Origin: a virus | Lineage: Duplodnaviria > Caudoviricetes | Direction: 5' to 3' (one strand) | Length of the DNA stretch: 37,357 nt | Virus record (IMG/VR): IMGVR_UViG_3300031520_000199 | Location: 1 to 37,357 of that record | Shown: one piece after another, positions 325 to 36,738 of the stretch | Layout: every line of letters starts with the position of its first letter | How positions within the stretch are numbered: position 1 is the stretch's first letter | The notes under the pieces: model-generated | What the model was told of the DNA's origin: nothing | What the model saw: only the letters and a program-made list of their open reading frames with translations | Database searches by the model: none | Translations under genes and position numbers: made by a program

Positions 325-885
325 ATGCCGCACAACTGGCGCACTGCCACCCTGCGCCAAGCGCATTCCGACTGCGAGATGCGGCGGCTGCTGCTGAGCG
401 ACAATGATGTTGACGTTTGCCAAGTGCTTCACTACCTGCAAATGACAACAGAAAAGCTTGCCAAGGCATTCTTAACGCCGCCAGGGGGACGTTATCCAAA
501 CACCCACAATGCGTTTGCCGAGTTCGTGCGCGTGGTCAAGCGCCGCCGAGAGTTCCAGGCCGCCTGCGGGTTCAGCCAGGCAGTTCCGTTTCGCGCCTAC
601 ATAGACGGCTTGCTTCCTCTCGCGCAAGCGGTGGAAGACCTTTCCCCTGACGGCGGCGACCACCCCAACCCAGAGTACCCCTGGAACGTCGGCGGCATGA
701 TCCTTGTTCCGGCAGAATACGCGTTTCCCGGCTTAAGCCTGAGCAGCCCAAAAATGCTGAAACTGCTGGAGTTTATCGCGGCTTGTTTCTCCATAGCGGG
801 AGAGCAGCACGAAGCCGAAATGCGCCAAGGAGAAGCAATCAGCGGTATACTTCTGTATTGTCATCAAAGAAAGAACCCTAAATGA
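325..885 (+). CDS. HEPN-like domain protein
   Basis: HYLQMTTEKLAKA...THNAF...PEYPW follows the HEPN pattern Q..EK.LKA / TH / YP. Confidence 0.6.
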   Translation: MPHNWRTATLRQAHSDCEMRRLLLSDNDVDVCQVLHYLQMTTEKLAKAFLTPPGGRYPNTHNAFAEFVRVVKRRREFQAACGFSQAVPFRAYIDGLLPLAQAVEDLSPDGGDHPNPEYPWNVGGMILVPAEYAFPGLSLSSPKMLKLLEFIAACFSIAGEQHEAEMRQGEAISGILLYCHQRKNPK

Positions 886-1656: not shown

Positions 1657-1686
1657 TTGACTTGCCCCCGGCCCATCGTCTATAAT
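1657..1686 (+). promoter_or_regulatory. Sigma-70 promoter of the tRNA
   Basis: TTGACT (1657-1662), 18-nt spacer, TATAAT (1681-1686), 10 nt before the tRNA. Confidence 0.8.
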
Positions 1687-1696
1687 AACTTCTGGT

Positions 1697-1768
1697 GGGT
1701 CGGTAGCTCAGCGGTAGAGCATCTTACTTTTAATGAGAGGGTCCTGGGTTCGAGACCCAGCCGACCCA
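1697..1768 (+). tRNA. tRNA-Lys(UUU); probable prophage attachment site (attL)
   Basis: Acceptor GGGTCGG/CCGACCC+A, D arm GCTC/GAGC, anticodon arm TCTTA-CTTTTAA-TGAGA, T arm CTGGG-TTCGAGA-CCCAG; CCA not encoded; integrase follows directly. Confidence 0.95.
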
Positions 1769-1938
1769 CGCTTTTCGCGGAAACATGGTCGGGATTGTTG
1801 GCGCAATCCCGACACTTTCACCCCAAAGTGAGAGTAATTTCCGGGTTTAGCATCCCACCAATGGCCTGCTTTGCTTGTGTCGTGGACACGCTCCCAAGTC
1901 CTTTTTTCGCGGCGAAAATGCCGCAGAAAGGCTCCAAA

Positions 1939-3045
1939 GTGTCGTCTACAGGCTCTCATTCATCATTCCGCAAAACTTTGCGCGGCGCGGCTTCCCCTGC
2001 ACCGCCTGCTGTCCGTGCAGGTCTCCCCACGCGCGATCTCCCCCGCTTGCTCTCTGCTTATGTGCAGGAGGGTGTTTATCTGCGCCTGTCTCCCCGCACA
2101 CAGGAGGCGCGGCAGTCCATTGTGGGCAAGCTTGTGTGGTTTCTGGACAACGAAGGGCACGCGCAGTGCGGCCAGGCGGAAATCCGCGCCTTTTTGACGT
2201 ATCTGGCGACGGGGCATCAGGATAAGGGTGGACGGTGGGGGCTTGCGCCAGAAGGCGAGCGCTTTTGCCGTGCTCCCGCTGCGTCTACGCTGAAAACCTA
2301 CCACACGTACCTGCGGGCGTTCTTCGGCTGGTGCGTGGATCAGGACTTGGTTGATGTGCATCCGATGGCGCGCATCAAGCCTCCCCGCGTCCCGGACGTG
2401 CGGCAGCAGCCGTTTACCCCCGCCGATCTTGCTGCGCTGGAAGCTGCCGCGAAGCACACGTGCTGCCCGCGCCGGGACACGGCCATCCTGCTGCTGCTCT
2501 GGGACACAGGGCTGCGCGTGTCCGAATGCGCAGCCCTGACGATGGGGGATGTGGACATTGTGGCAAAAACCCTGCTTGTGCGGCATGGCAAGGGCGACAA
2601 GGAGCGGGTTGTCAGCTTTGGACTGCGCGCGAGCCGCGCTTTGTGGGAGTACCTGCGCTCGGAAAAGCGAGATTGGACAACTGCCGCTGTGCGGGACGCC
2701 GAGGGCGAGTGCGCCCGCCGCGCCCTGTTTGAGATGGCCGCAGGGCATGGCAGGCGGGGGAACCTGGGCCTGACAGCCTCCGGGACCAAACAGATGATGG
2801 AGCGGCTGACCGCAATGGCAGGCATCACGCGGCCCAGGCGGGGCTGCCACACGCTGCGGAACACGTTTGCGTCCTCAGTGCTGCGGGATGGCATGGCTGT
2901 GCAGACGGCGCAGGCAGTTTTGGGACACACGACGGCGGCGATGACGTATCATTATGCCGCTCCCGACCAGGGCGATGTGTGCGCGGCCCAGCGCCGGCAT
3001 TCGCCGGTAGACAATGCCAAAAAGAAAGGCAAGCGAGGATGTTGA
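1939..3045 (+). CDS. int: Phage integrase (tyrosine recombinase)
   Basis: TGLRVSE (R), GKGDK (K), HTLR (HxxR), LGH and MTYHY (Y). Start taken as GTG 1939 after AGAAAGG (ATG 1918 is an alternative); the ORF-track start overlaps the tRNA. Confidence 0.92.
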   Translation: MSSTGSHSSFRKTLRGAASPAPPAVRAGLPTRDLPRLLSAYVQEGVYLRLSPRTQEARQSIVGKLVWFLDNEGHAQCGQAEIRAFLTYLATGHQDKGGRWGLAPEGERFCRAPAASTLKTYHTYLRAFFGWCVDQDLVDVHPMARIKPPRVPDVRQQPFTPADLAALEAAAKHTCCPRRDTAILLLLWDTGLRVSECAALTMGDVDIVAKTLLVRHGKGDKERVVSFGLRASRALWEYLRSEKRDWTTAAVRDAEGECARRALFEMAAGHGRRGNLGLTASGTKQMMERLTAMAGITRPRRGCHTLRNTFASSVLRDGMAVQTAQAVLGHTTAAMTYHYAAPDQGDVCAAQRRHSPVDNAKKKGKRGC

Positions 3046-3051
3046 TACGCT

Positions 3052-4011
3052 CTAATTGTCCAGCAGGTCGCCCAGGAGCTGCGTGATCTCGCCCTGATGG
3101 TCGGCGCGGGCATCGTCGTAAATCATCAGGGTTTCCAGCTTTTTGTGCCGGGAAAGCTTCTGCACGCGACGCACGTCGCCGCCGGTGGCTTCCAGCGCGG
3201 CAGTGATCGCGGAGTGTCGGAGCTTGTGGGGGGTCAGCACCAATCCGCATTGCCGGCCACGCGCCTGCACCATTGCGTGCAGTCCGTCCACTGTGAGCCG
3301 CGCGCCCGCGCCCTGCGCACGCCGGTCGCAGGAGCGAAACAAGGCCCCTTCGCAGTGTCCCGCCAGGGCGAGGTAGACCTGGATGGCCCGGACAGTGGCA
3401 GGAGATAGGGTGACGCTTTCCTTCTCCGTGCGCCCTTTGCCCAAAATGAACAAGCGGCGCTCGGCGGGCTGAAAGTCGGCCATGTCCAGGGCGCAGACTT
3501 CCGCGCGCCGCAGCGCGTTGTCGATCAACAGGCGCAGCAGGGCGAAATCGCGCCCGCCGCGCACGGTCGTGCGGTCGGGCACGACCAGCAGGCGTTTGAG
3601 ATTGGCTAAATCCGTGCCGCGCGTGTCCCGGTACGGCTCCACCCGCTCGCCGTCCACCAGGCCGCGCCCATCGGTCTGGCAGTAGCCCAGGCGAAAGGAA
3701 AACTTGAGCAGGCTTTTGACGGCAGCGAGGCGGCGATTGATGGTGGCGGCGGACAGGCCCCGCGATAGCATCTCGGCCCGCCACTGCGCCAGGCGCAGGG
3801 CAATTTCGGGCACGGGCAGGGCGAGGAACGCGTGGACGGCGGCGGCGCCGGCATCCTGCCTAAAGAACTGATCCAAATCCTGCCGGTAGGCGCGGCGGGT
3901 GGTGAGCTTGCGCTTGTCCTGCAAGAGCAATGCCACAGGATTCAGCATTACCCCAGGGGTAACAATTTGGTGGCTTTGGGGGGCGACGGGCGCGGGCAAA
4001 TTATGCGTCAT
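3052..4011 (-). CDS. Second tyrosine recombinase (XerC/D-like, resolvase type)
   Basis: NALRRAEV, GKGR, PHKLRHSAIT, LSRH and LMIY motifs; SAM-like N-domain (ATINRRLAAVKSL). ATG 4011 fits a promoter immediately upstream. Confidence 0.9.
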   Translation of the reverse strand: MTHNLPAPVAPQSHQIVTPGVMLNPVALLLQDKRKLTTRRAYRQDLDQFFRQDAGAAAVHAFLALPVPEIALRLAQWRAEMLSRGLSAATINRRLAAVKSLLKFSFRLGYCQTDGRGLVDGERVEPYRDTRGTDLANLKRLLVVPDRTTVRGGRDFALLRLLIDNALRRAEVCALDMADFQPAERRLFILGKGRTEKESVTLSPATVRAIQVYLALAGHCEGALFRSCDRRAQGAGARLTVDGLHAMVQARGRQCGLVLTPHKLRHSAITAALEATGGDVRRVQKLSRHKKLETLMIYDDARADHQGEITQLLGDLLDN

Positions 4012-4082
4012 GCCATCTATGGTACTGCATAATTTTACGGGTGTCAATTGGTACAGATAATGGCTGTTCAGCGTACCATAGA
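3999..4082 (-). promoter_or_regulatory. Promoter of the second recombinase, overlapped by inverted repeats (candidate res/operator site)
   Basis: Minus strand TTGACA (4047-4042), 17 nt, TACCAT (4024-4019). Inverted repeats AATTATGC/GCATAATT (3999-4006, 4027-4034) and TCTATGGTAC/GTACCATAGA (4016-4025, 4073-4082). Confidence 0.65.
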
Positions 4083-4089
4083 ACATGGC

Positions 4090-4119
4090 ACAGGCCCCGG
4101 CAGTAATGCCGGGGCCTGT
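4090..4119 (-). terminator. 13-bp perfect hairpin closing the leftward three-gene operon
   Basis: ACAGGCCCCGGCA-GTAA-TGCCGGGGCCTGT; no clear U tract. Confidence 0.55.
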
Positions 4120-4146
4120 CATGGTTTCAGGGGTAGTTGATCCTGA

Positions 4147-4545
4147 TTAACCGTCCTCGGTGATAAGTCTCTCAATGTACCCGGAGGCATTGCCGGTGGC
4201 TTTGGCCTTGTCCCATGCCTCATCCGAGATCGTAATGCCGTGCGTTTCCTTCCGACCTTCCGGCTTGACGCTTCCGGGCGGACGGCCAGGCCCGCGCTTG
4301 CGGTGATAGAAGCCGAGCCAGAAGCTAGATTGTTGCTCGTTAGACAAGGCTTCGGGCATCTCGCCAATCCCTGTGACCAGGGCGGAGATTTCGCCGTTTT
4401 CGCCGTCGCCGGTGGCGCGAGCAATGGCCGGGAGTAATGTACCGCGCAGATTGTGGGTGACGGCAACGGCGGAGTGGTCATCCGCCCAGCCTGCCGAAAT
4501 CAGCAGGTTGAGAAGCTGGCCCATCATGTAGGCGGGTTCGCGCAT
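4147..4545 (-). CDS. Cas11/Cas8c-C-terminal-like domain fused to AT-hook and ribbon-helix-helix; candidate Acr/Aca
   Basis: PAYMMGQLL...MPEALSNEQQSSFWLGFYHRK resembles Cas8c C-terminal motifs; then RGPGRPP and THGITISDEAWDKAKATGNASGYIERLI (RHH); RBS GAAAGGA. Confidence 0.65.
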   Translation of the reverse strand: MREPAYMMGQLLNLLISAGWADDHSAVAVTHNLRGTLLPAIARATGDGENGEISALVTGIGEMPEALSNEQQSSFWLGFYHRKRGPGRPPGSVKPEGRKETHGITISDEAWDKAKATGNASGYIERLITEDG

Positions 4546-4557
4546 CAGTGTTTCCTT

Positions 4558-4794
4558 TCAGTCTTGGTCTGCTTTGATAGGCAGGCTTGATTTGATGGTG
4601 TGCGGGTGAGAGGAGCAGTACCAGTCCAGCATTCGGGCGGTGGCGACGGGGCCAAAGCCCTGCCGCCATAGTAGCTGCACAAGGTCTTCCATGCCGGGCG
4701 GCTCTGGGGCATCGTTCTCACGCGCCGCCTGCGCTTTTTTGCGCCAATTGGCATCCGGGTGCATGGTGCGGCCCTGGGAGAGTTTTTCGGGCAT
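4558..4794 (-). CDS. Small hypothetical protein (78 aa), candidate anti-defence
   Basis: ATG 4794 after AAGGAGG; middle gene of the operon. Confidence 0.7.
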   Translation of the reverse strand: MPEKLSQGRTMHPDANWRKKAQAARENDAPEPPGMEDLVQLLWRQGFGPVATARMLDWYCSSHPHTIKSSLPIKADQD

Positions 4795-4807: not shown

Positions 4808-5137
4808 TTAGGCGAGGAGGGCGGGGAGATTGGGGCCGTTGGTGTGGCGGTTGTCAATCCACCAAGCCGCGCTTGTCTGCGTCATGACTTTGTTCCACCC
4901 GGCCACAACCGGGGCGGCGGCGGCGCTGATTTCGTCTTCCGTCATCTGGCCTTTGAGCGAGACAAGCACGTCGTCAAACCAGCAGAAAAACTCTTTGCCT
5001 GCGCTGAGCCGGATGGTGCGCGCCCAGTTGATTTGTTTCTCGCTGCCAGCCAGGGCGGGCAGAGCGGCATCAGGGTTCATTTTCTCGATGGTGGTGTTGA
5101 AATCTTCGTAGGAGTAGGTTTTTGTCTCGGTAATCAT
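4808..5137 (-). CDS. Small phage protein with GSEKQIxWAxxIR...WWIDNR motifs, candidate anti-defence
   Basis: RBS AGGAG; motif pair recognised from small mobile-element proteins; first gene after a strong promoter. Confidence 0.75.
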   Translation of the reverse strand: MITETKTYSYEDFNTTIEKMNPDAALPALAGSEKQINWARTIRLSAGKEFFCWFDDVLVSLKGQMTEDEISAAAAPVVAGWNKVMTQTSAAWWIDNRHTNGPNLPALLA

Positions 5138-5173: not shown

Positions 5174-5221
5174 ATTATACTCTAGTATTTAATTGTTGTC
5201 TATAGGTTTTATACTCTAGTA
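5174..5221 (-). promoter_or_regulatory. Strong promoter with two 13-bp operator boxes
   Basis: Minus strand TAGACA (5202-5197), 17 nt, TATAAT (5179-5174). TTATACTCTAGTA is repeated exactly at 5175-5187 and 5209-5221, each containing the palindrome TACT-nn-AGTA. Confidence 0.8.
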
Positions 5222-5334
5222 AAATATATTTTCACAACTATTTTTTCAGGCTCAAAATTGCACCCACACAATCCCGCACTGTTGCCAGCCTAGAGAAGCG
5301 CCTCAGGAATGGCATAATAGAAGTGCGGCCCTCG

Positions 5335-5478
5335 CAGGGCGCGGGTAGTTGTTTTATCTGTTATCAACCGCCCGCGCCCTTCTAATTTGCGTTGACCTGC
5401 GCAAAGCCTGGGCACAGGACGCGGGCGGCTGTTTTCTTTCTCATTGGTTTTCAGCCGCCCGCGCCTTCCTAATTTGTG
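5335..5478 (+). ncRNA. Two tandem homologous stem-loops at the head of the late region (candidate structured RNA)
   Basis: Units 5335-5391 and 5415-5478, about 16-bp stems, each followed by CTAATTTG; compensatory change GTTG/CAAC vs GCTG/CAGC. Confidence 0.5.
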
Positions 5479-5653
5479 TTTGTGCCATGCGGTGATTGCT
5501 TTCGCCCCTCCCGCGTGACTGCCCCAGCCAGCACCCTGCCCTACTTGGGTCTGCTATCGCTGGCACTGTTTTTTGCCATCATTATATTGCCGCCTCCAAG
5601 CCGTCCACTTTTGGGCGGCTTTTTTGGCGACTCGCTGCACTCGTACATTTACC

Positions 5654-31607: not shown

Positions 31608-31687
31608 GCAACGTCATTCTGCGTGTCACTGTCCACGCCGCCGCACAGTCGTTTCAATCCTCACCCGGCCCGTAGACCCGGTGCAAC
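31608..31687 (-). CRISPR. Type I-C-like solitary repeat / mini-array
   Basis: Minus strand GTTGCACCGGGTCTACGGGCCGGGTGAGGATTGAAAC (31687-31651), a 38-nt spacer (31650-31613), then GTTGC (31612-31608), identical to the repeat start. Confidence 0.8.
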
Positions 31688-34217: not shown

Positions 34218-34641
34218 GGGCAACCTCCTGCGATTTCAGCTTGCGTCCCCTGGCGGGTCGCTGAACGTAGTCTTCCGGCAGGGGAATGTGCGGCCACTGG
34301 AACTGCCATTCCCCGGCGCTGACATCCCGGATTTCCCCGGTGAAGTGGTTGACGCTTTGCAAAGCGTCCGCGCCGGCATCCTGCACCTCAAAGGTGCTTT
34401 CCGGGCAGTTTTGGCGCAGCAGGCCCGCCACAAACTCGGCAGCTTGGGCGCTGTGATAGCTCATCATCAGCCGGGGCACAGGCGGAGCGGCTCTGGACTG
34501 CCGCCCGAAGCTGCACAGCCGGAACCGACGGAGCGGCCACCACTTCTCGCCATTGGCATCGGGGCGCGGGGCGGGGCGAGCAGGCGCAGTATCCTGCGAA
34601 AGGCGCTGCAACAGCGCAATGCGACTTTTGGCTTGAATCAT
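34204..34641 (-). CDS. Hypothetical protein
   Basis: ATGA-coupled to the replication gene. Confidence 0.55.
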   Translation of the reverse strand: MIQAKSRIALLQRLSQDTAPARPAPRPDANGEKWWPLRRFRLCSFGRQSRAAPPVPRLMMSYHSAQAAEFVAGLLRQNCPESTFEVQDAGADALQSVNHFTGEIRDVSAGEWQFQWPHIPLPEDYVQRPARGRKLKSQEVAHAAQ

Positions 34642-35750
34642 GGGATATAACTCTCTTCCGCGCTGTCGCCGACGCTGGGCGGGCCGGGATCGCCGTAGAC
34701 GGCTTCCAGGGGTGTGACGCTCGCCATACTCTCCTCAATCAGGCGGCGCACCTCTTCGGGCGGCGAGGCGGCAAGGTCTGCTTTAGTGGGCACGGTCACG
34801 CTGTGATCGCGGAGCTTTCGTATCAGAATGGTGTCAAAATAAGCCCCCGGCTTGTCGGGGGGATTGCGGCTCGCCATTTTTCGGCGCGTGGCGTTTAGAG
34901 CATCGGTGATAACGCTGTCGAGGCCATTCCGATCAGCGATTTCCGCGAGCTGGAAATAGCGGGCTTCGCTTCCGATGTCCCGCAACTCGCGGGCCAGGGC
35001 GATGGCTTGCTGGACAAACCAGGCGCGGGCACTGGCGGAGAGAGGCGAGCCGGGGGGAGAAACAGGCCGGGAAGAAGAGGCGGGCGTAACACTCGCAGGC
35101 GTTACGCCGTTACGCTCCGCAACGTTCAACGTTGATTCTGATTCTAGTTCTGGAGAATCAATACTCGGATAACGTTGAACGTTATTCTGACCCGCGCGCG
35201 AGGGGCGTAACGCACTTGTAACGCTTTCCGGCGCGCTGCCAGCGTTACGCCCCGATGGGGCAGGCGTTACGGTTTCGCCTAAAACCGTAACGGAAAGCGT
35301 TACGGTTTCGGGCAGTTCTTGGCCGCGTTCTGCAAGCTCTTGGCCGCGCAGGGCTTTCTGCCGCGCCCGCCAATCCGCTTGCCGGTCGGCGTTGGGCGCG
35401 CGGGCAGGCGACGGGGCCGGGCCGCGCCGGGCGGATGAGTCGCCTTGTGCCGGCTCGTCCTCACTCAGCAGATAGGTGATGAGCAGGCCGGCATTTGTGC
35501 CATTCGGCTGCCACTCAATGAGGGCGATGTCCGCGCGGCTCCACTTTGTCAGCCGCCGCTCCCACTGCGCGGTGGTGAGGCGCAGGGATAGGCGGCAGTG
35601 CTCCACGCGGGCGGCGGGAACAAAGGCGGGCGTGCGGGTTTCGGCGGCGTAGCAGCACAGGTTGAGGAAATCCCGGTACTCATAGCCGGTGATCATGCGC
35701 TGGAGCGTGGCGTCAAAGGCGCTGCGAGAGTCTAGACAAAAAGTGCTCAT
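34638..35750 (-). CDS. Putative replication initiator (lambda O-like layout)
   Basis: N-terminal wHTH-like region, NADRQADWRARQK helix, repetitive linker (ETVT/SVT), C-terminal DKPGAYF motif. Confidence 0.65.
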   Translation of the reverse strand: MSTFCLDSRSAFDATLQRMITGYEYRDFLNLCCYAAETRTPAFVPAARVEHCRLSLRLTTAQWERRLTKWSRADIALIEWQPNGTNAGLLITYLLSEDEPAQGDSSARRGPAPSPARAPNADRQADWRARQKALRGQELAERGQELPETVTLSVTVLGETVTPAPSGRNAGSAPESVTSALRPSRAGQNNVQRYPSIDSPELESESTLNVAERNGVTPASVTPASSSRPVSPPGSPLSASARAWFVQQAIALARELRDIGSEARYFQLAEIADRNGLDSVITDALNATRRKMASRNPPDKPGAYFDTILIRKLRDHSVTVPTKADLAASPPEEVRRLIEESMASVTPLEAVYGDPGPPSVGDSAEESYIP

Positions 35751-35755
35751 GGTTG

Positions 35756-35838
35756 GTGTGCGGCTCGCGTCATCTGGTGTGTGCGGCTCGCGTCATCTGG
35801 TGTGTGCGGCTCGCGTCATCTGGTGTGTGCGGCTCGCG
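35756..35838. repeat. 23-bp tandem repeat, 3.6 copies
   Basis: GTGTGCGGCTCGCGTCATCTGGT at 35756, 35779 and 35802, partial at 35825. Confidence 0.95.
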
Positions 35839-36141: not shown

Positions 36142-36320
36142 GGGCGGGCCTCCTGTGCGGCGGCGGCTTTCCGGCGGTCGTGCCAGCGCTGCGAACGCGC
36201 GTTGTCGCGGGCTTTGCGGCACTCGGCGCTGCCGCAGATTGTCTGCGCCGAAGACTGCGGCGTGAATGCTTGGTGGCAAAACGGGCAGGTCTTGGGGGGC
36301 AGATTAGAGGGAGACGGCAT
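36138..36320 (-). CDS. Small Zn-finger protein
   Basis: CPFC...CGSAEC; GGAG before ATG 36320. Confidence 0.6.
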   Translation of the reverse strand: MPSPSNLPPKTCPFCHQAFTPQSSAQTICGSAECRKARDNARSQRWHDRRKAAAAQEARP

Positions 36321-36738
36321 GAGGAAACTCCGGTTCATTTTGGGGGAGAGGGCCGGGGAGCGATTGGCGTCGCCCCCGGCCTTTTGGCTCGGCTTTGCGT
36401 GGTCGTGGACGCGCTCCCGCATCCGGTGTTGGTTTGTTTCCATCCTCACCCGCCCCGAGAGGCGGGTGCAGCGCCTGGGGCCGCTCTGGGGGTGTCCAGT
36501 TGGGCCACAGGAACAGTTCGGGGCGGCAGCACAGGTGCGCGGCGCCGCGTTCGGCGTAGGCGCACGTGGCCCGTCCGTGCAGCTCAATGGCGCGGGCATG
36601 GCGGGGGCAGACGCGCATTCGCCGAGCAAAGCGCTTCAGCCCGCCGGGGCCTGCATAGCCGGCGGCAATGCGGGCCGCTTCCAGCCGGGTTTTCGGCGGG
36701 GTGTGTGTCCCTCCTTTTGTGGGTGGTGAAAAGGTCAT
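36304..36738 (-). CDS. Cro/XRE-like HTH protein
   Basis: RLEAARIAAG...KRFARRMRVCPRHARAIE...AAHLCCRPELF follows the XRE helix pattern; ATGA coupling. Confidence 0.5.
   Translation of the reverse strand: MTFSPPTKGGTHTPPKTRLEAARIAAGYAGPGGLKRFARRMRVCPRHARAIELHGRATCAYAERGAAHLCCRPELFLWPNWTPPERPQALHPPLGAGEDGNKPTPDAGARPRPRKAEPKGRGRRQSLPGPLPQNEPEFPHAVSL

What the first reader, a model, noticed from the sequence alone, without database searches (positions are those of the whole stretch)
4147..4545. Stand-alone Cas11c-like domain fused to AT-hook + RHH in a prophage with no cas locus
Seen: residues 1-83 start with PAYMMGQLL and end with EISALVTGIGEMPEALSNEQQSSFWLGFYHRK, followed by RGPGRPP and an RHH-like tail. 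Known: the Cas8c/Csd1 C-terminus, translated separately as Cas11c, is bounded by AYxxGRL and LSxxEQxxFxLGYYHQ motifs, and phage Cas-subunit mimics acting as anti-CRISPRs exist. Inference: a compact Cas11 mimic that enters or poisons host type I-C Cascade, while its RHH autorepresses the operon or tethers Cascade to specific DNA. I do not know this fusion as a characterised family.
Basis: partly seen in the sequence, partly recalled or inferred. Interest (0 to 1): 0.9.

Follow-up and report, generated by a model that had tools for sequence, protein, structure and literature searches.

The report
Phage Cas11c mimic with built-in repressor
This prophage gene encodes a shortened, acidic relative of the small Cas11 subunit of the type I-C CRISPR machine joined to a likely DNA-binding tail, and it is predicted to dock on that machine, would likely jam it, and would likely switch off its own promoter, a probable anti-CRISPR from a phage family not found described in the papers searched.

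Summary
Residues 1-84 are a distant homologue of Cas11c / the Cas8c C-terminus: the top 13 Foldseek ranks shown are type I-C Cascade chains, VIA Z is 9.0 against 5.3 for the next unrelated chain, and a sister subfamily reaches Cas11c at E 2e-7. It belongs to a set of 62 compact proteins that are shorter, acidic and lack the DRY..AS motif: 9 stand-alone, most others with RHH-like or HTH parts. A model docks it on a host-relative Cas11c (0.79 against 0.01 for the best control; may be memory of solved complexes). It ends a three-gene unit whose promoter carries two palindromes; two related phages repeat this layout with their own palindrome. New here: the prophage also holds two solitary type I-C repeats. 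'AT-hook' is not met; RHH is likely but weakly supported. Best reading: a bifunctional type I-C anti-CRISPR and autorepressor (0.55), the I-C counterpart of AcrIB4 with AcrIE10-like regulation. Nothing functional was tested and the host's own CRISPR content is unknown.

The parts
4147..4545 (-). Gene for the 132-aa Cas11c-like + RHH-like protein (P0001), last gene of a three-gene unit
4294..4545 (-). Compact Cas11c-like helical domain (aa 1-84); core 77 aa, net charge -6, no DRY..AS motif
4276..4302 (-). Basic linker with a GRP motif (aa 82-90); not a canonical AT-hook
4150..4248 (-). Likely ribbon-helix-helix tail (aa 100-132), also fused to unrelated N-termini in P0007 and P0009-P0012
   Evidence: weak support
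5174..5202 (-). Sigma-70-like promoter of the unit, TAGACA-17-TATAAT (11 of 12)
5175..5187 (.). 13-nt repeat copy 1 with TACT-N2-AGTA palindrome, over the -10 box and spacer; candidate operator
5209..5221 (.). 13-nt repeat copy 2, 34 nt from copy 1, just upstream of the -35 box; candidate operator
4808..5137 (-). First gene of the unit, 109 aa, phrog_16123 (unknown function)
   Evidence: (E 3e-11)
4558..4794 (-). Second gene of the unit, 78 aa, no family found
4090..4119 (.). Perfect 13-bp hairpin after the gene; possible end of the transcript (no T-run, not called by the terminator scan)
31651..31687 (-). Solitary type I-C CRISPR repeat R1, intergenic, 4 nt after a stop codon; Racr candidate
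   Evidence: (E 0.0023, under gathering score)
36436..36472 (-). Solitary type I-C CRISPR repeat R2, overlapped by two open frames; weaker Racr candidate
   Evidence: (E 0.00033, under gathering score)
1697..1769 (+). tRNA-Lys(TTT) next to the integrase; likely integration site, used to place the host

Best explanation
The gene encodes a shortened, acidic homologue of the type I-C small subunit Cas11c that is predicted to dock where native Cas11c binds, would likely leave Cascade unable to hold the displaced DNA strand, and carries a likely RHH tail that would repress its own three-gene operon. Steps: (1) shown: homology and fold, loss of about 20 residues including the DRY..AS motif and the basic HLxKLR helix, acidic charge, promoter with two palindromes, last place in the unit. 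(2) Predicted: the conserved terminal helix (aa 69-81) plus aa 23-30 packs on the middle helices of a Cas11c/Cas8c-CTD. (3) Inferred: on phage entry or induction the strong promoter gives a burst of protein; it takes a Cas11c position on Cas8c, and the R-loop is not stabilised. (4) Inferred: as protein builds up, RHH dimers bind the two TACT-N2-AGTA sites and shut the promoter; Cascade may titrate the repressor, as Cas7 does for AcrIE10. The solitary I-C repeats would be a second, RNA-based layer against the same system.
For: Fold: Foldseek ranks 1-13 shown are all I-C Cas11c/Cas8c, probability 0.82-1.00, E 0.07-0.93; VIA Z 9.0 for three I-C chains (rmsd 2.6-3.2, 84-90 aligned), next unrelated 5.3. 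Sequence; sister subfamily A9 to D. vulgaris Cas11c E 2.2e-7 over the whole domain. Divergence: core median 80 aa against 97-99, charge median -4 against +1/+3, motif in 0 of 61 against 57 of 70 and 25 of 26 (groups chosen by eye). Model: score 0.79, best of 3 controls 0.01; the mark was reached by 116 of 157 solved and 2 of 215 mismatched pairs; runs agree in at least 98% of contacts; partner pLDDT at least 85; like complexes are solved, so the pass may be memory. Context: all 4 members with a readable locus are on viral contigs (window, L003, L084, L088); no Cas7c in the 3 records tested. Regulation: the only repeated 4-2-4 palindrome in 37 kb sits on the promoter; L084 and L088 have different first genes but near-identical tails and the same doubled TGTACGTAC palindrome on their promoters. 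Target: two solitary I-C repeats; cas8c in 10 of 39 genomes of the likely host family. Precedent: AcrIB4, AcrIE10.
Against: No functional data. The host's own genome was not available and 29 of 39 family genomes had no cas8c match (many may be incomplete). No known acr gene was identified in the unit (PHROGs unknown or no hit; no Acr library was available). Direct hits of P0001 to Cas11c are sub-significant. RHH has no library hit and hhalign to RHH-labelled tails is weak (probability 18, E 0.0014; shuffles reach 14.9 against 20.5). Repeats and the mimic do not travel together in general: the complete phage of L084 has no repeat-end motif and the repeat-bearing phage of L024 has no Csd1 match (an insensitive query that also missed P0013). 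No spacer of 192 matched the prophage beyond 14 nt. Context is known for only 4 of 62 members. For AcrIB4 itself, entry into Cascade was not shown.
Confidence: 0.55

Rival explanations
1. Regulator only: the Cas11c-like domain is a Cascade sensor or an oligomerisation module. Binding to Cascade lifts RHH repression so that the upstream genes (the real counter-defence) are made; the domain itself does not inhibit.
For: 48 of 62 members carry a C-terminal RHH-like tail, one an N-terminal one and two an HTH, so fusion to DNA-binding parts recurs. AcrIE10 shows Cas-dependent derepression. The predicted docking fits a sensor too.
Against: 9 of 62 members are stand-alone, one as transposon cargo, so the domain has a role without a DNA-binding part. 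The same RHH-like tail sits on unrelated N-termini, as an exchangeable Aca-like module would.
Confidence: 0.2
2. Old exaptation: the domain came from Cas11c but no longer touches CRISPR; it acts on another host or phage target.
For: Long divergence, with compact domains on their own side of the tree (87/97, unstarred); most likely-host genomes lack a cas8c match; weak sequence similarity.
Against: The best-kept residues are those of the predicted Cas11 docking face; the prophage holds I-C repeats.
Confidence: 0.12
3. Co-option: the protein enters Cascade without killing it and its RHH tethers the complex, possibly loaded with RNA from the phage's solitary repeats, to operator DNA for gene control or competition between phages.
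For: The tail starts where the DNA-contacting terminal helix of Cas11c ends (inference); two solitary repeats lie in the same prophage.
Against: Repeat flanks have no convincing target in the window (best non-self 23 of 35); L084's complete phage has the fusion but no repeat motif; stand-alone forms exist; the palindromes are simply explained as autorepression.
Confidence: 0.08
4. It acts on another class 1 system (I-A, I-E, I-B or I-D small-subunit sites) or on a step other than interference.
For: Weaker fold matches to I-A and I-E small subunits, Z 3.6-5.0; the Cas3 homologue AcrVIA2 hits a different type than its origin.
Against: All strong matches are I-C and the phage's repeats are I-C type.
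Confidence: 0.05

Closest known systems
Cas11c / Cas8c C-terminal domain (type I-C; PDB 7KHA, 8DEX, 8G9S)
   Same: Helical fold, AYxxGxL start, PxxLxxEQxxFxLGxYH end, predicted subunit docking face.
   Different: About 20 aa shorter, acidic, no DRY..AS motif or basic helix, fused to a DNA-binding-like tail, own gene and promoter, no cas operon.
AcrIB4 (Listeria; bioRxiv 2023.06.24.545427, passages read; model in bioRxiv 2025.06.06.658234, passages read)
   Same: Mobile-element homologue of the large-subunit C-terminus that equals Cas11; proposed to replace Cas11.
   Different: AcrIB4 is type I-B, 38% identical to Cas8b, limited to Listeria, listed at 9.1 kDa and so without room for a fused regulator, and experimentally shown to inhibit. 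This one is I-C-derived, far more diverged, spread over several lineages and untested. I did not compare the two sequences.
AcrIE10 (PMC13530269, passages read)
   Same: One protein joining an anti-Cascade domain and an RHH that binds an inverted repeat with a 2-bp spacer over its own promoter; second gene of its unit.
   Different: AcrIE10 has the RHH at the N-terminus, binds Cas7 of I-E*, and is not described as a Cas homologue in the passages read.
Aca14 (PMC13551039, passages read)
   Same: RHH repressor of anti-defence operons through promoter inverted repeats.
   Different: Stand-alone 66-aa regulator; the paper's main text has no mention of Cas8, Cas11 or Csd1.
RacrIC1 / solitary repeat units (PMC10651486, passages read)
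   Same: Single I-C repeat in a prophage just behind a gene (11 nt there, 4 nt for R1).
   Different: R1 and R2 lie 27-32 kb from the finding, are of the 37-nt class and are untested.

Membership tests
Cas11c (genuine I-C small subunit) | Fold and homology to the Cas8c C-terminal domain | tested here: met
Cas11c (genuine I-C small subunit) | Encoded within or beside cas8c in a cas operon | tested here: not met
   no other Cas8c match and no Cas7c in the record; own promoter
Cas11c (genuine I-C small subunit) | Full-length core with DRY..AS motif and basic surface | tested here: not met
   77-aa core, charge -6, motif absent
Cas8c/Csd1 profile families (PF09709, TIGR01863) | Score above curated cut-off | tested here: not met
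   14.6 of 27 bits; 15.5 of 218.65 bits
Cas-mimic anti-CRISPR (AcrIB4-like kind) | Orphan Cas homologue on a mobile element, apart from true Cas proteins in a tree | tested here: met
   4 of 4 readable loci are viral; one side of a branch at 87/97, unstarred, so not rejected rather than shown
Cas-mimic anti-CRISPR (AcrIB4-like kind) | Binds or enters Cascade | tested here: inconclusive
   model 0.79 against best control 0.01, but like complexes are solved
Cas-mimic anti-CRISPR (AcrIB4-like kind) | Inhibits CRISPR interference | not testable with these tools
   needs a bench assay
Ribbon-helix-helix regulators | Beta-alpha-alpha pattern with profile or fold match | tested here: inconclusive
   alternating ITI stretch then two helices, pLDDT 62; Atlas neighbours RHH clan at 0.85-0.88, a lead only; hhalign weak; no Pfam, PDB or Foldseek hit; relative P0063 carries PF01402
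Acr-Aca bifunctional proteins (AcrIE10 kind) | Inverted repeats over the own promoter | tested here: met
   same layout in L084 and L088
Acr-Aca bifunctional proteins (AcrIE10 kind) | Binds and represses that promoter | not testable with these tools
   needs EMSA and reporter
AT-hook | RGRP core (recalled consensus) with flanking basic residues | tested here: not met
   PGRP here; no Pfam hit; HMG-I E 9.1
Racr / solitary repeat unit (R1, R2) | Single repeat matching a CRISPR subtype, no second copy nearby | tested here: met
   R1 is 35 of 37 identical to an array repeat of Armatimonadota and Chloroflexota (compared by eye)
Racr / solitary repeat unit (R1, R2) | Intergenic and transcribed | tested here: inconclusive
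   R1 intergenic; R2 lies under two open frames; expression not examined

The most novel reading that the evidence does not exclude
Phages keep a whole family of stripped-down Cas11c subunits that plug into type I-C Cascade and give it a foreign DNA-binding domain (RHH or HTH). In this prophage the hybrid complex, fed with RNA from the phage's own solitary repeats, is not just disabled but re-aimed by a protein at operator DNA: a protein-guided hijack of Cascade that couples counter-defence to sensing of the host's CRISPR load.
Probability: 0.08. Interest if true: 0.92.

Novelty: new variant of a known kind. Interest (0 to 1): 0.7.

Why it matters
Subunit poisoning through Cas11 has one candidate so far, AcrIB4, whose mechanism is unresolved. 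This gives a second, type I-C set of at least 62 natural variants, stand-alone and fused, with a predicted interface and a likely operator. That makes the question directly testable in well-established I-C systems with solved structures. Because the similarity sits below Pfam cut-offs for most members tested (3 of the 15 compact proteins reached or passed it), orphan-cas screens may have missed much of the family. If it inhibits, it is a small off-switch for compact I-C editing tools and a new guilt-by-association bait for the unknown genes in front of it.

Tried and rejected
Single-protein scan of viral contigs and the A2 scan of genome contigs found no relative; the metagenome scan returned only this element. 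tblastn in annotated phages gave only chance T4-like hits, true cas8c in one inspected record (the other fetched record was not examined) or HTH-only hits. A2 over 401 genomes of the likely host phylum hit 12 long ORFs of 563-750 aa, read as Cas8c, and no compact form; over 39 family genomes it hit 7, five long ORFs and two short weak tail-only matches not followed up. Two of the 18 hits (P0015, P0021) are repetitive false positives and were dropped; P0023 is a true Cas8c. P0022 and L034 were lost from the counts because no core was parsed. No RHH library or fold hit for the tail; the wide structural search of the tail could not be run. Repeat flanks have no target in the window; 192 spacers gave two 14-nt matches only. 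No attR copy of the tRNA end was found in the window. The scan's earlier notes held nothing. Rejected: chance motif match (several independent methods agree); remnant of a broken cas operon (intact gene, own promoter, 59-63% identical full-length homologues); AT-hook. No sequencing-run search was made.

Full report
1. The gene. Window 4147-4545 on the minus strand encodes a 132-aa protein, P0001. It has a purine-rich element before the ATG and GC3 of 0.71. Five full-length homologues are 59-63% identical (P0002-P0005, P0008). The window is a siphovirus-like provirus beside tRNA-Lys (1697-1769), with two tyrosine recombinases, terminase, portal, capsid and tail genes. It is rated 42% complete, and about 6.4 kb of its contig could not be read.

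2. The N-domain is a Cas11c homologue. Direct sequence hits are weak: Pfam Cas_Csd1 E 0.013 on profile positions 523-555 of 559, TIGR01863 E 0.0049, D. vulgaris Cas11c E 0.23. They all point one way. All 8 PDB hits of the domain profile A3 are Cas11c or Cas8c. An AlphaFold2 model (domain pLDDT 75-85) returns I-C Cas11c/Cas8c chains in every row shown for Foldseek ranks 1-13, probability 0.82-1.00, none with E under 0.001. VIA-align over 48,161 chains gives Z 9.0 for 8g9s_H, 8dej_I and 8g9u_H (rmsd 2.6-3.2 A, 84-90 aligned), 5.3 for the next unrelated chain, and 3.6-5.0 for I-A and I-E small subunits. The tool warns that Z under about 13 can be common for helical bundles; what counts here is the gap to the next row and the agreement with sequence. 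hhalign to 25 Cas8c C-termini gives probability 96.9, but over 39 columns only. The sister subfamily A9, reached by profile search, matches Cas11c end to end at E 2.2e-7.

3. It is a family. HMMER over 1.84 billion representatives gave 18 hits: 15 compact proteins, 1 true Cas8c and 2 repetitive false positives. A wider profile gave 328 hits among 7,998 scored candidates; 120 were listed, 111 of them new, which I sorted by eye into 41 compact and 70 Cas8c/Cas11c-like. With the earlier ones the compact set has 62 proteins: 48 with a C-terminal RHH-like tail, 1 ending just after the GRP motif (P0068), 1 with an N-terminal RHH-like part (P0018), 2 with HTH (P0029, Pfam HTH_3 E 7e-11; P0070), 9 stand-alone, and P0006. 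The RHH-like label is my reading except for P0063, which carries PF01402. Viral structure and PHROG libraries hold similar unnamed proteins (phrog_12690). Compact cores have a median of 80 aa (71-88) against 97 and 99 in two sets of true domains; median charge is -4 (54 of 61 at -2 or lower) against +1 and +3; the DRY..AS motif is in 0 of 61 against 57 of 70 and 25 of 26. The motif count is partly circular, since I used it in sorting. In a tree of 70 rows (32 compact, 38 true; a subset) the compact rows form one side of a branch at 87/97, unstarred, on 97 columns. In the alignment the phage domain keeps the first helix and the terminal PxxLxxEQxxFxLGxYH helix and lacks the DRY..AS motif and the basic HLxKLR helix. 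O'Brien et al. (bioRxiv 2022.06.15.496202, passages) report that positive and aromatic residues of Cas11c (H78, F117, K118) hold the non-target strand. Extending the alignment without gaps puts F117 at G87, inside the GPG break (inference).

4. Predicted binding. Folding A3 with a Cas11c domain from a host-family genome (G237, L067) scored 0.79 against 0.01 for the best of 3 controls. The mark was reached by 116 of 157 solved and 2 of 215 mismatched pairs; runs agree in at least 98% of contacts and partner pLDDT is at least 85. The counts hold only roughly with my own alignments. Cas8c-Cas11c complexes are solved and close cousins pass this test, so it shows likeness, not binding. The interface uses mimic residues 69-81 and 23-30, including W76, on host residues 51-70 and 84-96. 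The AcrIB4 model uses Cas8b residues 504-530 of 562, the matching middle part. By analogy the mimic would sit where the first Cas11 docks on Cas8; I did not check the direction in I-C structures.

5. The tail. The linker is RKRGPGRPP, a GRP motif but not the RGRP core of an AT-hook (recalled); there is no Pfam hit and HMG-I matches at E 9.1. The last 33 residues model as an extended stretch and two helices at low confidence. Atlas neighbours are RHH-clan clusters at 0.85-0.88, a lead only; hhalign to RHH-labelled tails is weak; library and fold searches are empty. The same tail, 52-69% identical in the alignment, sits on five unrelated N-termini, so it is an exchangeable module.

6. The operon. 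Three co-oriented small genes follow a near-consensus promoter, TAGACA-17-TATAAT at 5202-5174 (7 sites in the region against 0.7 in shuffles). Two copies of a 13-mer with a TACT-N2-AGTA core lie 34 nt apart, one over the -10 box and one above the -35 box; it is the only 4-2-4 palindrome repeated within 60 nt in the window. Two other phages test the idea. In L084 (complete, 54 kb) and L088 the Cas11c-like-RHH gene ends a two-gene unit. Their first genes differ, their tails are nearly identical, and both promoters carry a doubled TGTACGTAC palindrome. Tail and palindrome thus vary together in 3 of 3 fusion loci, though two are close relatives. In L003 the stand-alone form rides in a transposon with 32-nt terminal inverted repeats. 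No Cas7c was found in the window, L084's or L003's record; L088's record was not tested.

7. Type I-C context. Rfam finds two solitary CRISPR-DR9 repeats, R1 (31651-31687) and R2 (36436-36472), E 0.0023 and 0.00033, both under the gathering score. Both fold into the repeat hairpin (z -2.6 and -2.9), share 28 of 37 bases, and have no further copies. A pattern built from them found 20 loci in 15 genomes, 9 loci titled Armatimonadota; 11 of the 15 genomes have a cas8c match, 6 over cut-off (one of the 11, G012, is unpublished), and in 7 the gene lies in the array's locus. The host flank gene has a 51% relative in G167 of that phylum (2 of 251 genomes matched). In G167's family the tRNA is 97-99% identical in 12 of 39 genomes and 10 of 39 carry cas8c. 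The host is therefore likely of this family, and whether it has I-C itself is unknown. Camara-Wilpert et al. (PMC10651486, passages) found that 83% of prophage solitary repeats match a host subtype and that RacrIC1 inhibits I-C. Against a fixed partnership: L084's phage has no repeat-end motif and L024's has no Csd1 match.

8. Mechanism and rivals. Best reading (0.55): a bifunctional Acr-Aca. The domain keeps the docking helix, has lost DNA-holding surface and would poison Cascade; the tail would autorepress. Rivals: sensor or regulator only (0.2), exaptation away from CRISPR (0.12), re-aimed Cascade (0.08), another target type (0.05).

9. Known and new. It works, if at all, like AcrIB4 with the regulation of AcrIE10 or Aca14. 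It fails membership of Cas11c proper and of the AT-hook class. Six full-text searches (listings and abstract starts, plus passages of seven papers) showed no description of a phage Cas11c-like family or of this fusion. The library lacks most subscription papers, and Table S3 of bioRxiv 2023.06.24.545427 (358 orphan viral cas genes) was not seen and may list members. Verdict: new variant of a known kind, interest 0.7.

Noticed in passing
window 31651-31687 and 36436-36472 (-): Two solitary 37-nt type I-C repeats, Racr candidates. In R2 the T-to-G change in the repeat's 3' end removes what would be a TGA stop in the frame of ORF 36304-36738.
   Followed up: partly
P0023: A 1003-aa Cas8c with four tandem Cas11-like C-terminal domains (Pfam reports 4 stretches): the small-subunit filament appears fused in one chain.
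   Followed up: no
L036/L041 (G011) and L038/L042 (G013): In two Armatimonadota genomes cas8c is cut by a TAG stop and the Cas11c part is a separate ORF.
   Followed up: no
L003 6947-9407: Transposon with 32-nt terminal inverted repeats inside a phage, carrying a transposase (IS1595-like by my recall), a 270-aa unknown gene and the stand-alone Cas11c-like gene P0013.
   Followed up: partly
L024 10001-10037: Another phage with a single I-C repeat, 34 of 37 identical to R2, antisense behind dnaB and near a zinc-finger-like gene resembling the one behind R2.
   Followed up: partly
window 5333-5393 and 5420-5480: Two related hairpin units 87 nt apart (70% alike) in the non-coding stretch above the promoter; function unexplained.
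   Followed up: no
window 3052-4122 (-), promoter 4047-4019: A second tyrosine recombinase with its own promoter, converging on the integrase at 1657-3045.
   Followed up: no
window 325-885 (+): Host-flank gene with a weak HEPN match (E 0.003) behind a small ORF; may be a HEPN-MNT-type pair.
   Followed up: no
P0007, P0009-P0012: The same RHH-like tail is fused to five unrelated N-terminal domains; these are candidates for further counter-defence proteins.
   Followed up: no
window 35779-35815: Short tandem duplication of about 21 nt just before the replication-initiator-like ORF 34638-35750 (seen).
   Followed up: no
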